A stretch of 64,000 nucleotides of DNA from a virus, in the IMG/VR virus record IMGVR_UViG_3300049137_000157, positions 32,001-96,000 of that record. The stretch is one strand, 5' to 3'. Under the pieces are notes generated by a model. It was not told the DNA's origin. It saw only the letters and a program-made list of their open reading frames with translations, and searched no databases. A program made the translations under genes and the position numbers. Numbering within the stretch: the first letter of the stretch is position 1; the number at the start of each line of letters is the position of its first letter. Shown here one piece after another: positions 1,272-57,578 of the stretch.

Positions 1272-1475
1272 TCAGACAGTGCTGACGTCAGCCGCCTGGG
1301 GACCCTTCGAACCCTGCTCCACCTGGAAGTAGACGCGCTGCCCCTCTTCGAGACTGCGGTACCCACCACCCTGGATGGCGGAGTAGTGGACGAAGACGTC
1401 CTTCCCGCCCCCGTCCGGGGTGATGAAGCCGAAACCCTTCTCGGCGTTGAACCACTTCACGCTGCCCTGCGGCAT
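1272..1475 (-). CDS. cspA: cold-shock protein (CSD RNA chaperone, 67 aa)
   Basis: [18 protein letters not shown]...DVFVHYSAI: RNP1/RNP2 motifs; long 5' UTR with TACGAT -10-like box upstream. Confidence 0.95.
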
Positions 1476-1749
1476 GTCAGTCCTCACACATTGCTCGTTG
1501 GAAACCCCGGGGAAGAGTGACGCGAAACCCACGAACACCAAACTCGGAGTGCTCTGAAATCGTATCGACGATCCCCGACATGACCAGCGTAAAGATCAGA
1601 GGGAATCACGCCACCCACTGTTTCCTCACAAGCGAATGTCCCGACTGGTGAAGATTCTCCCAAAAACGTGCGGAGAAAAACGACTGACCGCCCGGAAGGA
1701 AGAACCCTCCGAACGGTCAGCAGTCATCCGGCTTGACGGCCTGCTCGGG

Positions 1750-3399
1750 TCAGGACATCCACGGCCAGTGGGCGTTGCGCCCCGACTCCAGCAGCGGAAT
1801 CATCCGGAACGCGGCGTCGGTGAGACCGCCGAACGTGTGCCGGTTGCCCTTGCCCGACGGACCGTGACCTGCCTGGTAGCCCGCGAGGTTCCAGGTGTAC
1901 ACCGGAATGTTCTTCGGGACCTGCTCGGTCGGGTCACCGCCGTGGGCGCTGTCGGCCTGCTCGTCCGTGATGATGACGACCCGGTCGTGTCGGGCGAACT
2001 TCTCCTGGACCGCAAGTGCGGTCGCGGTGCCGCCGCCGAGGAACCAGCCGCCGTCCTTCCACCGGCCCACCGCTCGCAGCAGGGACTCGCCCCGCTTGAG
2101 CGGGAAGTCCTTGGTGTTCGCCCCGGGTAGGTCGTTCCAGTACCGCTGGGTCGAGGAGAACGACACGACGTCCGCCGAGGCGCAGCGCTGTCCCAGGGCG
2201 ATACCGAACAGGGCGGCGGCGTCCCACCGCATGAGGCTGCCGTCCTTCGAGAAGGCTCCCTTCATGGACGTCGAGGTGTCGACCAGGATCAGCGTCCGCC
2301 CCTTCAGCTCGGGCACGTTGGCCAGCGAGTGACCGAGCGCCTTCTCCAGCGGGTAGCCCCAGCGCAGCGACGGGGCCGCCTGGTATGCCGAGTAGAACCG
2401 CATCGGGAACTGCTTGGACCGGGCAACTTCGGCCGGATCGGCGAGCTTCTTCGAGACCAGTTCCGCCGACTCGTCCGGCACACCCGACTCGTCGAAGTTC
2501 CGCAGGTTCCGCAGCAGCGCCATGTAGCCCATCGACGGGATCATCGACTGCCACAGGTCGCTCTTGTTGACCTTCGAACCGAGGGCGGACAGGACGTCCT
2601 CCCAGGTGAGTCCGGAAGCCTTCAGAGCGGCGGGGTCGAGGAGGCGGGCGAGGGTCTCGTGCTTGTCCGCCACGGTCCCGTCGATCACCTGCTGCGTCTC
2701 GCTGCGCCACCGGCGCTCACTGCGGAGCATGGCCAGCGAAGCCGGAAGCGGAGCCTCGTTGCCCTTGCTCTTGTGGTCGAGGATGTAGCCGAACAGTTCT
2801 CGCTGTCGCTGGTCGAGCGGGCTCGGGTGGACGATCCGCAGGGCGTCGGCGAACTTGACGTTGTTCTTGGCCGAGTCGTACTTGAGCCAGTTTCGCTCCG
2901 TGTACATTCGGCCGATCGCCGCCTCCAGGCCCTTGTACACCGCCGTGTAGCGCCGGGGCTTCGCCTTGCCTGCGATCGAGAACCAGTAGGCGAGGAACTC
3001 ACCCACCTCGTCCGGCCGCTGGAGCGAGCCGTCGATCATCTCGGCGATGCCGTCGTAGCGGTGGGCGTCGGCCAGCACCTTGGCCACCTCAGCCGCGCCG
3101 ACGACGGCCGCCGTGCGCATGAAGCCCTCGGAGCGCAGCCAGGGCAGAAAGCCCTGAACCCAGGCCGGGTCGTCGAGTGCGACCTTCTGGATCAGTTCGG
3201 CGTAGCGGGTGTCACGCCTGTCGGCCTTCTCGTAGAAGGTGTTCTCGCCGACCATGTTGGCGAGGGCGAGCAGGTACAGCTCGCTCTTGGCGTCGCGGAG
3301 GTATCCCGTTCCGCCCTGGTGGTTGATGGTGGTGGTCCCGGTCGAGGTGACCGGCGAGGTGACGAGCGGCCGGGTCGACCGGGTGTTCAGCTTGGCCAT
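1750..3399 (-). CDS. Ro60/Rsr-like TROVE-domain RNA-binding protein with C-terminal vWA domain (549 aa)
   Basis: TROVE-like N-terminus (ELYLLALANMVGENTFYE, MGYMALLRNLRN, FPMRFYSAY), MIDAS LILVDTSTSM and VIITDEQ; adjacent Y-RNA-like array. Confidence 0.92.
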   Translation of the reverse strand: MAKLNTRSTRPLVTSPVTSTGTTTINHQGGTGYLRDAKSELYLLALANMVGENTFYEKADRRDTRYAELIQKVALDDPAWVQGFLPWLRSEGFMRTAAVVGAAEVAKVLADAHRYDGIAEMIDGSLQRPDEVGEFLAYWFSIAGKAKPRRYTAVYKGLEAAIGRMYTERNWLKYDSAKNNVKFADALRIVHPSPLDQRQRELFGYILDHKSKGNEAPLPASLAMLRSERRWRSETQQVIDGTVADKHETLARLLDPAALKASGLTWEDVLSALGSKVNKSDLWQSMIPSMGYMALLRNLRNFDESGVPDESAELVSKKLADPAEVARSKQFPMRFYSAYQAAPSLRWGYPLEKALGHSLANVPELKGRTLILVDTSTSMKGAFSKDGSLMRWDAAALFGIALGQRCASADVVSFSSTQRYWNDLPGANTKDFPLKRGESLLRAVGRWKDGGWFLGGGTATALAVQEKFARHDRVVIITDEQADSAHGGDPTEQVPKNIPVYTWNLAGYQAGHGPSGKGNRHTFGGLTDAAFRMIPLLESGRNAHWPWMS

Positions 3400-3405
3400 G
3401 ATCTT

Positions 3406-3873
3406 CTAGTCCTTTCCGGTGGTCGCGTTCGGTGAGACCGTCGGGGCCTCCTTGAGTGCCTTCAGTTCGGTGAGCAGGGTGATGACGTGGGACATCAGTC
3501 CGGCATGCTCGGTCGCCCCCACTGCGAGAGCCTGGTCGCGGTGCTCGATGACCCCTTGCCGGACGCGATCGACATCTGCCGTAGTGGAGTCGATGCCAGT
3601 CGAAATTGCTGAAGACTTCGACGTTCCCACGTTGGGTGCTTCCCGGTAGGGCCGGAAAGCCGCAAGGGTCTCGATCCCCTCGACAATGACCCGGAGGTCT
3701 CCGTACAGATCCGAGAAGACGGCCTCGGCGTGCGGGTTTTGCAGGTAGTCGGGGTGCGGGTTCTGGGCGAGCGACCGCAATGCGCGCAGTTCCTCGTGGT
3801 CGACGGCGAGGAGGATGGTCTGCTCGTTCAGCGACTTGCCGGTGCTCTCGTCAGGGTTGGTGGCGTTCCTCAT
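3406..3873 (-). CDS. hypothetical protein inside the ligase-Ro operon (155 aa)
   Basis: AGGAG RBS before ATG at 3873; tightly packed between the ligase stop (3893) and the Ro start (3399). Confidence 0.75.
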   Translation of the reverse strand: MRNATNPDESTGKSLNEQTILLAVDHEELRALRSLAQNPHPDYLQNPHAEAVFSDLYGDLRVIVEGIETLAAFRPYREAPNVGTSKSSAISTGIDSTTADVDRVRQGVIEHRDQALAVGATEHAGLMSHVITLLTELKALKEAPTVSPNATTGKD

Positions 3874-3892
3874 GGACAGCGTCTCCTGTTGA

Positions 3893-4648
3893 TCACTTGC
3901 TGCGCAGAGTGCGGGCGTAGTCCTCGAAGCGGGCCTTGGCAATGATCTTGCGGTCCTCGGTCCGCAGGACGATCCCTTCGGCCTGACCCTTCGCTCCGTC
4001 GTCGAGTGCGACACGGGTGGAGGGGAGGGCGTCGAGAAGCCACTGCTGCATGCCCGCGATGCCCTTGGGGAGAGCCTGGGCCGGGACGCGACCGAGTCGC
4101 GGGGTCAGGGGGATGTTGACGGCGAGGGCGTAGTTCAGCATCTCGGTCTCGGTGTGGAAGTCCTGTCCGCCGTTGTCCCGCCAGGAGGCGATGCGCTCCC
4201 GGTTCCAGGTGAGGACGTCCGGGTTGAAGCGCGCGATGTCGAAGAGGCGGTAGCCGGTGAGGCCGGTGGTGGAGTACTGCTTGGCTGCTGCGCCGATGCC
4301 CGAGCCGTAGACCTCCAGGAAGAGGGTGTAGATCTGACCCGTGTCGGTGGGCTTGGCGAGCTGCTCCGCAAGGGGCCGCAGGGCGCTGACGATGCCGAGC
4401 GTCGGGTTGGCCACCCGGTCACCCTTGGCGTACAGGAGTTCCTTGCGCGAACCGATGAGGTAGTCGCCGTCGGGGAAGAGGACGATGCGCCCGTTGGTGC
4501 CGTCGACCTTCTCGGTGAGGACGACATCGCCCTCGAACTCCGTGGCCTCGTCGGTGAGGCGGCCCTTGTTGCCCAGTGCGTGGTACGTGAAGATGCTCGG
4601 GTACTGCGTGGCCGAGTCGATCTCCGGAAGCCTGTTCGGATCGAACAT
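3893..4648 (-). CDS. ATP-dependent RNA ligase, Rnl2-like adenylyltransferase domain (251 aa)
   Basis: nucleotidyltransferase motifs TEKVDGTN, FLEVYG, LFDI, EGIV, AKAR; RBS GGAGAAGGAC before ATG 4648. Confidence 0.88.
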   Translation of the reverse strand: MFDPNRLPEIDSATQYPSIFTYHALGNKGRLTDEATEFEGDVVLTEKVDGTNGRIVLFPDGDYLIGSRKELLYAKGDRVANPTLGIVSALRPLAEQLAKPTDTGQIYTLFLEVYGSGIGAAAKQYSTTGLTGYRLFDIARFNPDVLTWNRERIASWRDNGGQDFHTETEMLNYALAVNIPLTPRLGRVPAQALPKGIAGMQQWLLDALPSTRVALDDGAKGQAEGIVLRTEDRKIIAKARFEDYARTLRSK

Positions 4649-4678
4649 GTCCTTCTCCTTTTCCATCAGAACGCAGAA

Positions 4679-4708
4679 CGCCCCCTCTCCCGAATTGGAG
4701 AGGGGGCG
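4679..4708 (-). terminator. hairpin between the Y-RNA array and the ligase gene
   Basis: CGCCCCCTCTCC / GGAGAGGGGGCG 12-bp stem; only a weak U-tail on the minus strand. Confidence 0.7.
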
Positions 4709-4712
4709 CTTC

Positions 4713-4885
4713 CTGTGGTGCGAGGACGAAGTGACCGGCTGAAAAAGTCGGCCCCGGCGTGTGGAGTCTGATGCTCTACCAATTGAGCTACGGGCAGCTT
4801 GGCTGCTCGACGGGACTTGAACCCGCAACCGCCAGAGTGAAGTATCCGGAACCTGCGCTCCGGTCACCACGTCCTCGCATCACAG
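4713..4885 (-). ncRNA. YrlA-like Y RNA with circularly permuted tRNA domain (~173 nt)
   Basis: ~25-bp terminal stem; order is T-arm (GCGGG-TTCAAGT-CCCGT), loop-closed acceptor-like stem, then D-arm (TAGCTCAATTGGTAGAGC); near a Ro60 gene. Confidence 0.85.
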
Positions 4886-5042
4886 CTTCACAGATCCAGA
4901 GGAGCCACCGGCTGAAAGATGAGCCCCGGCGTTTGCCCCGTGCCAGATTTGGGCGTTGACGGATTCGAACCGTTCCATTTCTTGTTTCAGGAAGAAGTAA
5001 CCGTTGCTGCGGCACTCCGGTAACTCTTCTGAACCTGTGAAG
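4886..5042 (-). ncRNA. second Y-RNA-like unit with T-arm only (~157 nt)
   Basis: long terminal stem with G-U pairs on the minus strand; shared CCGGAG..TACTTC and CCGGGGC..TTTCAGCCGG motifs; ACGG-TTCGAAT-CCGT arm. Confidence 0.75.
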
Positions 5043-5045
5043 TCG

Positions 5046-5123
5046 AGCGCCCCCCGGCTGAAAAGTCGGCCTCGGTCTAATTTCACCGAAGAAGTATCCG
5101 AAGCCTGCGCTCCGGGGGTGCAC
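5046..5123 (-). ncRNA. third, minimal Y-RNA-like unit (~78 nt)
   Basis: terminal stem plus the same two conserved motif blocks; starts about 6 nt below a -10 box. Confidence 0.7.
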
Positions 5124-5128
5124 TAAGA

Positions 5129-5157
5129 ACACTAGGCCATTCGACAGGCCACCACAA
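5129..5157 (-). promoter_or_regulatory. sigma70-type promoter of the Y-RNA/ligase/Ro unit
   Basis: TTGTGG-17 nt-TAGTGT on the minus strand; the -10 overlaps a GGCCTAG half-site. Confidence 0.7.
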
Positions 5158-5217: not shown

Positions 5218-5553
5218 TCAGGCGACGATCAGGTACGTTGCCTCGGCATCCGTCACGGTGAAGGCCCGCTTCAGATCGGGTGTCACAGCGGCGAGGACCT
5301 CTTGCCGTTCGTCGTAGCACGAGACGAGGAGCTGCATGCACCCCGGGCACAGCCGGGCCAGCACGTCATCCCGGATCCGGGCCAGTCGGCTCTTCGACGC
5401 ACAGGCGTCACACACGATCGACCGAGGGTACGCCATGACCATCACCCGGTCGTCGTACGTCGCGTGCGCGACGAGCCGGATCATCTCGGTCCCGTGGTCG
5501 CCCTCGTCGAGCCACTTCTGTACGGCGTCGCGCAGATCGGTCCTCTTGCCCAT
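5218..5553 (-). CDS. hypothetical protein with CxxC pairs (111 aa)
   Basis: GGAAAGGAAGAGG RBS; CDAC...CPGC. Confidence 0.75.
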   Translation of the reverse strand: MGKRTDLRDAVQKWLDEGDHGTEMIRLVAHATYDDRVMVMAYPRSIVCDACASKSRLARIRDDVLARLCPGCMQLLVSCYDERQEVLAAVTPDLKRAFTVTDAEATYLIVA

Positions 5554-56072: not shown

Positions 56073-57578
56073 GTGACGTTCAAACTCACGGACGAACAGC
56101 AGTACGCGGTCGACCTTGCAGGCAAGGGCGAGCGCACCAAGGTCATCGCCCCTGCCGGATCGGGCAAGTCCAAGACGGCCGAGGAGATGGCCAGGGCGAT
56201 GATCCGGGCTGGCAAGCGGAACATCCTCTATCTGGTCTACAACACCGAGGCCCGGCGCGACGCCGAACGGCGCTTCAAGGGACTGGACCAGGTCAAGGTC
56301 CGGACGACCAGTCAGATCGGCTACCGGGCCTTCGCCGGTACCCACAAGGATCGCATGAACTTCAAGACGGCCCCCAAGGTCCCGAGCTGGCAGTTGGCGG
56401 AATGGCTCAAGTTGAAGCCGCTGAACTTCGGGGACGGGCTCGTCCTTGACGGGCCCCAGCAGGCCCTGTACGCCACAAGGGCGATCGACCAGTTCTGCTC
56501 TTCCAACCGCCGGTCCATCACCGCCGACGATGTCCCGTTGGAGATGCATGGAGTCGACGACTCCGCGCTGAAGTCGGTCAAGACGGCCATCGCCACACTG
56601 GCGCAGAGCATCTGGTTCGACGCCAAGCGCGCCGGATCCCGCTTCCCGTTCGACATGACCATGGCCTTCAAGCATGTCGCCCTCGACGGCAAGGACGAGG
56701 GCTACGACGCGGTTCTGCTCGACGAGGCGCAGGACTCCAACGACAACACCATGGCGTACCTCAACAACCAGGAGAACGCTCAGATCTGCGTGCTCGGAGA
56801 CCCTGCGCAGACCCTCTACGCCTGGAGGGGGTCGACAGACCAGATCCTTCAGTTCGACGGAGTCCCGGCCCCCCTCACGCAGAGCTTCCGATTCGGCGAG
56901 GCCATCGCCGAGGAGGCAATGAAGCACCTTCCGTTCACGGAGACCGGGGTTGTCGTGAAGGGCCTGCCGAGCATCCGGGACAAGGTGTTCTACGGCGGGA
57001 TGGAGAAGCCGGACGTCGTCCTCACCCGGACGAACGTGGGCTCCATGTCCTACGCGCTCTCCCTCATGGAGGCGGGTTACCGAGTGGCACTCGTCAAGGG
57101 AGCCGACCCCATTCGGTCGCTGGCCTTCGCCGCGATCGAGCTGCGCAAGGGCAAGCGGCCCACCCGGAACATCGAGTTGTCCGCGTTCGAGGACTGGTCC
57201 GAGCTGGTGTCCTTCACGGAGGAGCCCAGCGGTGGCCATCTGAAGGCGCTGGTGAACCTCGTGAACATCCACGGCACCAAGCCCCTGATCGATGCGTGCG
57301 GCAACATCGTCCCGTACAGCGCTCGCAACCCTCAGCACGACGTCGCGGTGACCACGTGCCACTCCATCAAGGGACTGGAGTGGGACAACGTCCTCATCGG
57401 TGACGATTTCGACGAGCCGAAGCCGCACGTCGACCCGAAGACCGAAGAGGTCACCCCGGGAGAGATCAAGCGATTCGACGCGATGGTGAACTACGTGGCC
57501 GTCAGTCGAGCACGTAAGGCTCTCGACGCCGAGGGCCTGGCGTGGATCAACAAGTACCTGGAATCTGCGACGACGTAA
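56073..57578 (+). CDS. UvrD/Rep-like SF1 helicase (501 aa)
   Basis: LTDEQ, APAGSGKS, LDEAQD, GDPAQTLYAWRG, QSFRFG, HSIKGLEWD, YVAVSRAR. Confidence 0.93.
   Translation: MTFKLTDEQQYAVDLAGKGERTKVIAPAGSGKSKTAEEMARAMIRAGKRNILYLVYNTEARRDAERRFKGLDQVKVRTTSQIGYRAFAGTHKDRMNFKTAPKVPSWQLAEWLKLKPLNFGDGLVLDGPQQALYATRAIDQFCSSNRRSITADDVPLEMHGVDDSALKSVKTAIATLAQSIWFDAKRAGSRFPFDMTMAFKHVALDGKDEGYDAVLLDEAQDSNDNTMAYLNNQENAQICVLGDPAQTLYAWRGSTDQILQFDGVPAPLTQSFRFGEAIAEEAMKHLPFTETGVVVKGLPSIRDKVFYGGMEKPDVVLTRTNVGSMSYALSLMEAGYRVALVKGADPIRSLAFAAIELRKGKRPTRNIELSAFEDWSELVSFTEEPSGGHLKALVNLVNIHGTKPLIDACGNIVPYSARNPQHDVAVTTCHSIKGLEWDNVLIGDDFDEPKPHVDPKTEEVTPGEIKRFDAMVNYVAVSRARKALDAEGLAWINKYLESATT

What the first reader, a model, noticed from the sequence alone, without database searches (positions are those of the whole stretch)
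1750..5157. Mobile-element RNA repair/decoy module: Y-RNA array, Rnl2-type RNA ligase, unknown gene, Ro60
Seen: one minus-strand unit with a promoter (TTGTGG-17-TAGTGT), three tiled structured RNAs, a hairpin, a KxDGxN ligase, an unknown 155-aa ORF and a TROVE-vWA protein. Known: bacterial Ro60 (Rsr) binds Y RNAs, and in the well-studied Salmonella locus it is linked to RtcB/RtcA, which join 2',3'-cyclic phosphate to 5'-OH ends. Here the partner is instead an ATP-dependent Rnl2-type ligase (3'-OH/5'-P chemistry), with no kinase/phosphatase recognised in the window. Inference: a counter-defence or stress module in which Ro plus tRNA-mimic RNAs bind or decoy damaged RNA and bring it to the ligase, perhaps against host anticodon nucleases. 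This is the best candidate for an undescribed system here.
Basis: partly seen in the sequence, partly recalled or inferred. Interest (0 to 1): 0.9.

Follow-up and report, generated by a model that had tools for sequence, protein, structure and literature searches.

The report
Phage Ro60, Y RNAs and ligase
A 199-kb soil Streptomyces-type phage carries one operon with three Y RNAs, a small ATP-dependent RNA ligase, an unknown gene and the RNA-binding ring protein Ro60; every part is real, but the same layout stands in cultured relatives and the Ro60-plus-ligase pairing is already in the literature, so it is a new member of a known kind.

Summary
On the minus strand, between a promoter-like site (5157-5129) and a strong terminator (1721-1683), lie three tiled Y RNAs, a hairpin, a 251-aa RNA ligase, a 155-aa unknown gene and a 549-aa Ro60.

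The RNAs are bona fide Y RNAs. A covariance model finds relatives directly upstream of Ro60 in nearly all related loci, and 28 of 31 base pairs show compensatory changes.

The claim of an undescribed system does not hold.
- Cultured cluster-BM Streptomyces phages share the three-RNA array and Ro60.
- JustBecause and Kela also have the ligase next to Ro60. In JustBecause it lies between the array and Ro60.
- That ligase (AYD81305.1) is cited in a 2021 jumbo-phage survey as a divergent actinophage ligase outside Rnl1 and Rnl2.

The linkage is sporadic but recurs independently: in Dactylosporangium chromosomes, and in a provirus with another ligase family plus Pnkp. The complete phage genome has no RtcB, kinase or phosphatase of the five families searched.

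I read it as a Ro60/Y-RNA particle with an accessory ligase that needs no end-healing and probably acts on tRNA-like RNAs. Cooperation between them is unproven. This scan has noted Ro60-like genes with RNA arrays in many other phages.

The parts
5129..5157 (-). Promoter-like site: TTGTGG (5157-5152), a 17-nt spacer, and TAGTGT (5134-5129). The second hexamer ends 7 nt before the GCACCCCC start of Y1.
   Evidence: Read. It is not called by the consensus scan. JustBecause, Satis and Frankenweenie have TTGCGA and TAATGT hexamers with the same 7-nt distance from the second hexamer to the first RNA.
5051..5118 (-). Y1: a short Y RNA with a 7-bp closing stem, the shared scaffold, and a small hairpin as its insert.
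   Evidence: Model R1 hit at 34.8 bits, E 1.6e-5. Fold. Orthologous first units are present in JustBecause, Satis and Frankenweenie.
4886..5042 (-). Y2: a Y RNA with a 26-bp closing stem (one mismatch, counted by hand). It carries a T-arm mimic with loop UUCGAAU and no D arm, like M. smegmatis YrlB.
   Evidence: R1 hit at 28.1 bits, E 5e-4. MFE -65.4 kcal/mol, z -4.6. Orthologues.
4720..4878 (-). Y3: a YrlA-type Y RNA. It has a closing stem of 18 pairs, a GGUUCCGG/CCGGGGCC helix, a T arm, a closed acceptor-like stem and a D arm.
   Evidence: Rfam YrlA 41.5 bits, E 1.3e-7. R1 150 bits. Covariation. The MFE structure reproduces all helices.
4674..4715 (-). G+C-rich hairpin (13-bp core stem) between the RNA array and the ligase. 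It has no U-tract in this phage.
   Evidence: MFE -32.8 kcal/mol, z -5.9. Not flagged as a terminator. The homologous hairpin in relatives is followed by T-rich sequence.
3893..4648 (-). ATP-dependent RNA ligase, 251 aa, consisting of the nucleotidyltransferase domain only.
   Evidence: PF09414 E 5.7e-14. AlphaFold2 pLDDT 93.9. Foldseek: T4 Rnl2 2e-9, Naegleria RNA ligase 4e-8, archaeal RNA ligases about 2e-6. About 1,100 homologues. 50% identical to JustBecause gp136.
3406..3873 (-). Unknown 155-aa helical protein, apparently a fusion of two small-protein families. It starts 19 nt after the ligase stop and ends 6 nt before the Ro60 start.
   Evidence: No Pfam, PHROG or NCBIfam hit. Its two halves match separate 62-105-aa metagenome proteins at E 3.5e-8 to 6e-4. 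GC3 0.81. AlphaFold2 pLDDT 50. Absent from IMG/VR and GenBank phages.
1750..3399 (-). Ro60 (Rsr) orthologue with TROVE and vWA parts.
   Evidence: It is 38-46% identical to the 'Ro-like RNA binding protein' of cluster-BM phages and 50-53% identical to Dactylosporangium Ro60.
1683..1721 (-). Intrinsic terminator closing the unit: 17-bp stem followed by TTTTT.

Best explanation
This is a phage-borne Ro60/Y-RNA ribonucleoprotein operon of the actinobacterial YrlA/YrlB type. A stand-alone ATP-dependent RNA ligase and, in this phage only, a small unknown gene have been placed between the RNA array and Ro60.

Shown:
- One promoter-to-terminator unit holds three Y RNAs, a hairpin, the ligase, the unknown gene and Ro60.
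- The genes are 19 and 6 nt apart.
- The RNAs belong to a family that sits upstream of Ro60 across actinophages and is held by covariation.
- The ligase has a complete nucleotidyltransferase active site and an RNA-ligase fold.

Inferred:
- The three RNAs are cut from one precursor and bound by Ro60 through the shared 5' scaffold ((A/U)GCG(C/A)AGG, then a helix, then N-UACUUC).
- The hairpin, which lacks a U-tract here, stabilises the RNA 3' end and lets some transcription run on into the ligase, unknown gene and Ro60.
- The particle displays tRNA-like modules that either decoy tRNA-directed nucleases or recruit host enzymes such as PNPase.
- The ligase reseals RNA breaks that already carry 3'-OH and 5'-phosphate. 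None of the end-healing families searched for is encoded anywhere in the genome.
- Nicked host tRNAs are the most likely substrate.

Whether Ro60 and the Y RNAs hand substrates to the ligase or simply act in the same conflict is not shown.
For: Identity of the parts.

RNA family:
- Model R1 finds full-length relatives just upstream of Ro60 in about 30 independent loci.
- 96.8% of cells are paired against 66.5% in shuffles. 28 of 31 pairs have changes on both sides. The covariation score is 0.60, against 0.07-0.10 when partners are slid.

Conservation of the array: the same three-unit order (short, T-arm only, full YrlA), promoter and hairpin stand in JustBecause, Satis and Frankenweenie.

Linkage of ligase and Ro60 recurs.
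- JustBecause has the ligase 19 nt upstream of Ro60. Kela has both genes side by side.
- 10 Dactylosporangium chromosomes have the two genes divergent and adjacent.
- IMG/VR locus L003 has them 3 kb apart.
- Provirus L123 has, behind Ro60, a Metallophos phosphoesterase, an OB+PF09414 ligase of another subfamily, and Pnkp.
- The ligase tree needs at least 2 separate origins of linkage.
- 3 of 17 viral contigs with this ligase also encode a TROVE protein.

No RtcB, AAA_33 kinase, PNK3P, Metallophos or RlaP was found in the complete genome. JustBecause also lacks RtcB and AAA_33.

Host plausibility: S. coelicolor tRNA halves were cloned by direct adapter ligation without kinase or phosphatase treatment. 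That implies 3'-OH and 5'-P ends (PMC2241913; this is my inference from their method).

Literature: Rsr and Y RNAs have been proposed as ligase cofactors and are occasionally next to other ligase families (10.1101/312249).
Against: - 18 of 20 viral contigs with a close Ro60 relative have no PF09414 ligase at all, including all 8 that are at least 90% complete.
- Satis and Frankenweenie keep the array and Ro60 without a ligase.
- 29 of 30 viral ligase loci and 70 of 80 bacterial ligase loci have no Ro60 within 6-10 kb, and the ligase has no other conserved neighbour.
- The ligase clearly works without Ro60 in most genomes, so the adjacency could be a mosaic insertion at a permissive site.
- 7 of the 10 Dactylosporangium pairs have no detectable YrlA between the genes.
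- There are no expression or binding data. The tool for sequencing runs was closed.
- The ligase's substrate, RNA or DNA, is inferred from fold and family only.
Confidence: 0.5

Rival explanations
1. Two independent functions that happen to be neighbours. Ro60 and the Y RNAs work as in Deinococcus or Thermus phage phiLo, tethering or hijacking host PNPase for decay of structured RNA or for RNA quality control. The ligase is an unrelated accessory gene that landed in a permissive gap between the RNA hairpin and Ro60.
For: - Most Ro60 phages lack the ligase, and most ligase genes lack Ro60.
- The slot between the hairpin and Ro60 is empty in Satis and Frankenweenie. In this phage it has also taken up an orphan gene.
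- phiLo Ro60 and its Y-RNA-like RNAs form a complex with host PNPase without any ligase (PMC12135203).
- In other actinophages Ro60 sits inside tRNA arrays, not next to ligases.
Against: - Adjacency has arisen at least twice for this ligase family and once more for another ligase family with Pnkp.
- It has been kept while the proteins diverged to 45-50% identity between this phage and JustBecause.
- 18% of viral contigs with this ligase also have a TROVE protein, whereas only 77 of 50,697 phage records have a Ro60 match.
Confidence: 0.35
2. The ligase acts on the Y RNAs themselves. The long closing stems of Y2 and Y3 (26 and 18 pairs) are cut out of the tiled precursor by a metal-dependent nuclease such as RNase III, which leaves 5'-P and 3'-OH ends. 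The ligase then rejoins or circularises the RNAs to make them resistant to exonucleases.
For: - The units are tiled with only 7-8 nt between them and have long perfect stems.
- The ligase needs exactly 5'-P and 3'-OH ends, and no healing enzyme was found.
- The only solved ligase the family profile touches by sequence is the archaeal Rnl3-type enzyme 5D1O, at E 0.22. From my own knowledge, that enzyme type circularises single-stranded RNA.
Against: - The same RNA array with the same long stems exists in Satis and Frankenweenie without any ligase.
- More than 1,000 homologous ligases occur in genomes where no Ro60 or Y RNA is nearby.
- The sequence match to Rnl3 is not significant.
Confidence: 0.07
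3. The ligase is a DNA or mixed-strand nick sealer used in replication or repair, and has nothing to do with RNA repair.
For: - The covalent nucleotidyltransferase fold is shared with DNA ligases, which appear lower in the Foldseek list at E 1e-4 to 1e-3.
Against: - The best fold matches are all RNA ligases: Rnl2, the Naegleria RNA ligase, archaeal RNA ligases and REL1.
- Pfam places it in RNA_ligase.
- It has no OB or DNA-binding domain.
- It sits inside an RNA operon.
Confidence: 0.08

Closest known systems
Streptomyces phages JustBecause and Kela (cluster BM): gp136/137 'RNA ligase' and gp135/136 'Ro-like RNA binding protein'
   Same: JustBecause has the same order on one strand: promoter, three Y RNAs (short, T-arm only, full YrlA), hairpin, ligase, Ro60. 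Its ligase is 50% and its Ro60 45% identical to the window's. JustBecause also has no RtcB or AAA_33 kinase. In Kela the ligase and Ro60 genes lie side by side in the same way; I did not read its RNA array.
   Different: JustBecause has no 155-aa gene between the ligase and Ro60. The Y RNAs are not annotated there, and one is called tRNA-Cys.
M. smegmatis and mycobacteriophage Rsr with YrlA and YrlB (Chen et al. 2014, PMC4201824)
   Same: Several Y RNAs lie upstream of Ro60 and are made from one precursor. One has a full tRNA-like domain (T arm, acceptor-like stem, D arm). A second carries only a T arm. A conserved 5' motif is thought to bind Ro60.
   Different: This phage has three units rather than two. 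The 5' motif reads GCGCAGG in Y1 and Y3, rather than the published GNCGAAN0-1G. A ligase and an orphan gene lie between the RNAs and Ro60.
Salmonella rsr-yrlBA-rtcBA RNA repair operon
   Same: Ro60, Y RNAs and an RNA ligase are in one operon. The proposed role is in repair or protection of damaged tRNA.
   Different: The ligase here is an ATP-dependent lysine-adenylate enzyme (3'-OH/5'-P), not RtcB (3'-P or cyclic-P with 5'-OH). RtcB is absent. I did not search for RtcA or RtcR. The setting is a lytic-type phage.
T4 Rnl2 and the Naegleria/Deinococcus nick-sealing RNA ligases
   Same: The nucleotidyltransferase fold and motifs I, III, IIIa, IV and V are shared. These enzymes are the best Foldseek matches.
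   Different: Only 15-17% identity. There is no C-terminal domain (Rnl2) and no N-terminal OB domain (the Naegleria type). Motif V reads K-x-R. A family-specific N-terminal segment is conserved. PMC7824862 places it outside Rnl1 and Rnl2.
Thermus phage phiLo Ro60 with Yrl1 and Yrl2 (PMC12135203)
   Same: A phage Ro60 with Y-like RNAs just upstream. It is the best solved-structure match to the window's Ro60.
   Different: The phiLo paper does not mention a ligase at all. Its proposed action is capture of host PNPase.

Membership tests
Ro60 / Rsr (TROVE + vWA ring protein) | TROVE domain | tested here: met
   Pfam PF05731 at 60 bits against a cut-off of 23. PHROG 850 matches over residues 18-549.
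Ro60 / Rsr (TROVE + vWA ring protein) | C-terminal vWA domain with a MIDAS motif | tested here: met
   Residues 264-541 align to phiLo Ro60 chains 9KOP and 9L5Y, E 4e-28. The DxSxS motif (D-T-S-T-S) is visible in the translation. No separate vWA Pfam hit was reported at E <= 0.01.
Ro60 / Rsr (TROVE + vWA ring protein) | Binds Y RNA | not testable with these tools
   Only the conserved adjacency of the RNA family to Ro60 is shown.
YrlA-class Y RNA (Rfam RF02553) | Reaches the Rfam gathering score | tested here: not met
   41.5 bits against 69, E 1.3e-7, full-length match to model positions 1-114. No match at the gathering threshold.
YrlA-class Y RNA (Rfam RF02553) | Closing stem plus a tRNA-like module (T arm, closed acceptor-like stem, D arm) encoded next to Ro60 | tested here: met
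   MFE structure. Covariation was counted on 50 sequences: 96.8% of cells paired, 28 of 31 pairs with compensatory changes. The alignment was fitted to the model, so the counts lean towards it. The slid-partner control gave 0.07-0.10 against 0.60.
YrlA-class Y RNA (Rfam RF02553) | 5' motif GNCGAAN0-1G thought to contact Ro60 (PMC4201824) | tested here: inconclusive
   Y1 and Y3 have A-GCGCAGG and Y2 has GUGCCGCAG. Several related phages have U-GCGAAGG, which contains CGAA.
T4 Rnl2-type RNA ligase | Lysine nucleotidyltransferase motifs I, III, IIIa, IV and V | tested here: met
   E112, F136/D137, E224/G225 and K238/R240 are invariant, and the motif I lysine K47 is nearly invariant, in 36 sequences.
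T4 Rnl2-type RNA ligase | C-terminal domain needed for nick recognition | tested here: not met
   The protein ends at residue 251, right after motif V. The model is a single domain. The match is to the Rnl2 N-terminal domain (1S68, 2HVR).
T4 Rnl2-type RNA ligase | Sequence-level membership | tested here: not met
   Neither phmmer nor a 36-sequence profile finds Rnl2 among solved chains. The best match is an archaeal RNA ligase at E 0.22. PMC7824862 places its 50%-identical JustBecause homologue AYD81305.1 outside Rnl1 and Rnl2.
rsr-yrlBA-rtcBA RNA repair operon | RtcB ligase | tested here: not met
   No PF01139 match in the complete 199-kb genome.
Heal-and-seal RNA repair (Pnkp plus ATP-dependent ligase, T4 type) | Polynucleotide kinase and 3'-phosphatase | tested here: not met
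   No AAA_33, PNK3P, Metallophos or RlaP in the genome. Other phosphoesterase families (2H, HD, HAD_PNKP as such) were not searched.

The most novel reading that the evidence does not exclude
The ligase is a bare catalytic domain with no substrate-binding module. In these phages the Ro60/Y-RNA particle, or the orphan 155-aa protein, may supply that module in trans. The result would be an ATP-dependent RNA repair particle that needs no end-healing. Its target would be the 3'-OH/5'-P tRNA halves that Streptomyces makes under nutrient stress, a chemistry different from every studied Ro60-linked repair system.
Probability: 0.12. Interest if true: 0.7.

Novelty: new member of a known kind. Interest (0 to 1): 0.3.

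Why it matters
It matters modestly.
- The window gives a clean, fully delimited example of a phage Ro60/Y-RNA operon with an ATP-dependent ligase.
- It shows that cultured, genetically tractable relatives exist with the ligase (JustBecause, Kela) and without it (Satis, Frankenweenie). That is a ready-made comparison for asking what Ro60, the Y RNAs and the ligase do for a phage.
- It flags tRNA annotations in GenBank phage records that are probably Y RNA parts.
- It defines a large, uncharacterised clade of minimal RNA ligases, with about 1,100 members, mostly in Actinomycetota.

Tried and rejected
- Rfam at gathering thresholds found nothing in the window. Only the relaxed search showed YrlA.
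- The 3' motif TTTCAGCCGG is specific to this phage and does not mark the family. The 5' motif CGGNTACTTC does mark it, but it also hits the ligase coding sequence in Dactylosporangium (KYP codons), which I discounted.
- A conserved partner gene for the ligase: clustering the neighbours of about 80 ligase loci gave none outside Dactylosporangium synteny.
- Homologues of the 155-aa protein: none in Pfam, PHROG, NCBIfam, GenBank phages or IMG/VR. The joint alignment was too weak to search with. The single-sequence AlphaFold2 model has pLDDT 50, so I made no fold search with it. The ESM Atlas gave no usable hit.
- The cold-shock gene at 1272-1541 as part of the unit: rejected. A strong terminator separates it, and in relatives the cold-shock homologue is about 40 kb from Ro60.
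- Burroughs and Aravind 2016 and the 2020 Sim et al. review are not held. What I say about them comes from papers that cite them.
- The careful tree search did not finish, so the quick tree was used.

Full report
**Where the window lies.** The window is bases 32001-96000 of a 199,468-bp IMG/VR virus record with direct terminal repeats, judged complete. G+C is about 64%. Its nearest cultured relatives are the cluster-BM Streptomyces phages Satis, JustBecause, Kela and Frankenweenie, of about 185-200 kb.

- *Ro60.* The 549-aa ORF at 1750-3399(-) is a Ro60. It has Pfam TROVE at E 3e-16, PHROG 850 over nearly its whole length at E 3e-48, and a match to the solved Ro60 of Thermus phage phiLo at E 4e-28. 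A DxSxS MIDAS-type motif is visible in the translation.
- *Ligase.* The ligase runs from the ATG at 4648 to the stop at 3893, 251 aa. It has Pfam RNA_ligase at E 5.7e-14, and the motif I lysine and motifs III, IIIa, IV and V are invariant or nearly invariant in 36 homologues.
- *Unknown ORF.* The 155-aa ORF (3406-3873) has coding-type base composition, with GC3 of 0.81 and GC2 of 0.45. It starts 19 nt after the ligase stop and ends 6 nt before the Ro60 start.
- *Terminator.* A 17-bp terminator with a T-run at 1721-1683 closes the unit. This leaves the cold-shock gene at 1272-1541 outside it.
- *Promoter.* TTGTGG-17-TAGTGT (5157-5129) is present but too weak for the consensus scan. Its support is that relatives carry TTGCGA and TAATGT hexamers, with the same 7-nt distance from the second hexamer to the first RNA.

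**The RNAs.** Three units are tiled with 7-8 nt between them.
- Y1 (5118-5051) has a 7-bp closing stem and a small hairpin.
- Y2 (5042-4886) has a 26-bp closing stem and a T-arm mimic.
- Y3 (4878-4720) has a closing stem of 18 pairs and a full tRNA-like module: T arm, closed acceptor-like stem and D arm.

Y3 matches Rfam YrlA over the whole model at 41.5 bits, E 1.3e-7, below the curated 69 bits.

All three share a scaffold. On the 5' side it reads (A/U)GCG(C/A)AGG, then a helix strand, then N-UACUUC. On the 3' side it has the partner strand, a U-rich loop and the closing stem. The 5' part recurs upstream of Ro60 in most related phage loci.

I built a covariance model from Y3 and its three cultured-phage orthologues and searched 39 sources.
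- Full-length hits fall directly upstream of Ro60 in about 30 independent loci, at up to 108 bits for sequences not used in training. All three window RNAs are found.
- On the resulting 50-row alignment, 96.8% of cells pair against 66.5% in shuffles, and 28 of 31 pairs have changes on both sides.
- The covariation score is 0.60, against 0.07-0.10 when partners are slid.
- The alignment is fitted to the model, so these counts lean towards it, but the slid control keeps that bias.

These are Y RNAs of the actinobacterial YrlA/YrlB kind. Chen et al. 2014 described YrlA and a T-arm-bearing YrlB upstream of M. smegmatis Rsr, made from one precursor, and YrlA-like RNAs in 22 phages (PMC4201824).

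**The same module is in cultured relatives.**
- JustBecause, Satis and Frankenweenie carry the same promoter, the same three units in the same order and the same hairpin.
- In Satis and Frankenweenie the hairpin is followed directly by Ro60.
- In JustBecause it is followed by gp136 'RNA ligase' and then, 19 nt later, gp135 'Ro-like RNA binding protein'. In Kela the ligase and Ro60 genes lie side by side in the same way.
- The ligase is 50% and Ro60 45% identical to the window's.
- The 155-aa gene has no counterpart in JustBecause.
- JustBecause gp136 is AYD81305.1. This is the accession Iyer et al. 2021 give as an example of rare divergent actinophage ligases outside Rnl1 and Rnl2. The same paper notes ROT/TROVE proteins in a subset of jumbo phages as RNA-repair platforms (PMC7824862).

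**The ligase.**
- The AlphaFold2 model is confident (pLDDT 93.9) and forms a single domain.
- Foldseek ranks T4 Rnl2 first (E 2e-9), then the Naegleria nick-sealing RNA ligase, archaeal RNA ligases and the trypanosome editing ligase, all at 15-17% identity. DNA ligases rank much lower.
- By sequence, neither the protein nor a family profile finds a solved ligase at a significant E-value.
- It has neither the Rnl2 C-terminal domain nor an OB domain.
- There are about 1,100 homologues, mostly annotated 'RNA ligase family protein' in Streptomyces, Kitasatospora, Nocardiopsis and Micromonosporaceae, and also in Nostocales, Corallococcus and Planctomycetes.
- The tree largely follows host taxonomy.

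**Is the linkage to Ro60 conserved?** The answer is mixed.

*Against.*
- 29 of 30 viral ligase loci and 70 of 80 bacterial ligase loci have no Ro60 within 6-10 kb.
- Clustering of neighbours gave no other conserved partner.
- 18 of 20 viral contigs with a close Ro60 relative have no PF09414 gene, including all 8 that are at least 90% complete.
- In BRock, GiJojo and Atuin, Ro60 sits inside tRNA arrays.

*For.*
- Besides the BM sub-lineage, 10 of 12 Dactylosporangium loci have the ligase and Ro60 adjacent and divergent. YrlA lies between them in 3 of the 10. One of the other 7 (L063) has a spacer of only about 65 nt.
- IMG/VR locus L003 has them 3 kb apart, with a YrlA upstream of Ro60.
- Provirus L123 has two YrlA-type RNAs, Ro60, a 122-aa gene, a Metallophos phosphoesterase, an OB+PF09414 ligase of a different subfamily and a T4-type Pnkp in a row.
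- The tree needs at least two origins of linkage within this ligase family, and L123 adds a third with another family.
- 3 of 17 viral contigs with this ligase also encode a TROVE protein. Only 77 of 50,697 phage records have a Ro60 match.

**End chemistry.** The complete genome has no RtcB, AAA_33 kinase, PNK3P, Metallophos or RlaP, and only one tRNA. JustBecause also lacks RtcB and AAA_33.

An ATP-dependent ligase needs 3'-OH and 5'-phosphate. It therefore cannot by itself repair the cyclic-phosphate breaks made by PrrC-type or HEPN nucleases (established enzymology, from my own knowledge).

Streptomyces coelicolor cleaves most tRNAs in the anticodon loop during growth on minimal medium. Those halves were cloned by direct adapter ligation without kinase or phosphatase treatment (PMC2241913). 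That implies 3'-OH and 5'-P ends. This is my inference from their method, not their statement. Such breaks would suit this ligase.

**The 155-aa gene.**
- It has no family hits.
- An exhaustive HMMER search found only nine weak relatives. Each covers either residues 1-79 or residues 89-153, in separate proteins of 62-105 aa.
- It therefore looks like a fusion of two small-protein families joined by a linker with weak coding signal.
- None is in IMG/VR or GenBank phages. The model is helical but of low confidence. Its role is unknown.

**Verdict.** Its reading as an RNA-protection or repair module is reasonable but not new. The Ro60/Y-RNA array is a standard feature of cluster-BM and many other actinophages. 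The ligase insertion is shared with sequenced, annotated relatives. The idea of Ro60/Y RNA working with non-RtcB ligases, and of YrlA as a nuclease decoy (PMC7790460), is published. 'Rnl2-type' is right only for the fold. What is particular here is the absence, across the whole genome, of the end-healing families searched, and the extra orphan gene. Cooperation between Ro60 and the ligase remains unproven, at about even odds. This scan has logged Ro60-like genes with RNA arrays in more than 200 other genomes.

Noticed in passing
L132 2335-2405 (JustBecause gene 137) and L134 3245-3335 (Frankenweenie gene 148): The GenBank features 'tRNA-Cys' and 'tRNA-Pro(tgg)' (91 nt) lie inside Y-RNA hits of model R1 (L132 2319-2468; L134 3253-3433). 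They are probably tRNA-like parts of Y RNAs rather than decoding tRNAs.
   Followed up: partly
L123 5618-12112 (IMG/VR provirus 637000198_000003): A complete operon with Ro60 in front: two YrlA-type RNAs, Ro60, a 122-aa ORF, a Metallophos phosphoesterase, an OB+PF09414 RNA ligase (427 aa), and Pnkp (AAA_33 kinase plus HAD_PNKP phosphatase).
   Followed up: partly
L059, L063, L074, L082, L088, L105, L111 (Dactylosporangium): In 7 of 10 Dactylosporangium Ro60/ligase divergent pairs, model R1 finds no YrlA near Ro60. In L063 the spacer between the two genes is only about 65 nt. The three other loci (L089, L103, L106) have a YrlA between the genes.
   Followed up: partly
window 3406-3873 (-): The 155-aa ORF looks like a fusion of two small-protein families that are separate 62-105-aa ORFs in metagenomes. 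The linker (3580-3663) has a weak coding signal.
   Followed up: partly
window 1272-1541 (-): A cold-shock (CSD) gene lies just behind the Ro60 terminator. In Satis, JustBecause and their relatives the homologous gene is about 40 kb away from Ro60, so the proximity here is not conserved.
   Followed up: partly
whole genome G000: This phage has one tRNA gene (tRNA-Val, window 56247-56330), whereas Satis and JustBecause have 13 and 14 (PMC6687918).
   Followed up: no
L135, L137, L138 (phages BRock, Atuin, GiJojo): In these actinophages Ro60 and its YrlA-type RNAs are embedded in long tRNA gene arrays. This points to a link between phage Ro60 and tRNA biology.
   Followed up: no
window 5218-5553 (-): A 111-aa ORF upstream of the promoter has two Cys-x-x-Cys pairs and no family hit. 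It may be a small zinc-ribbon protein.
   Followed up: no
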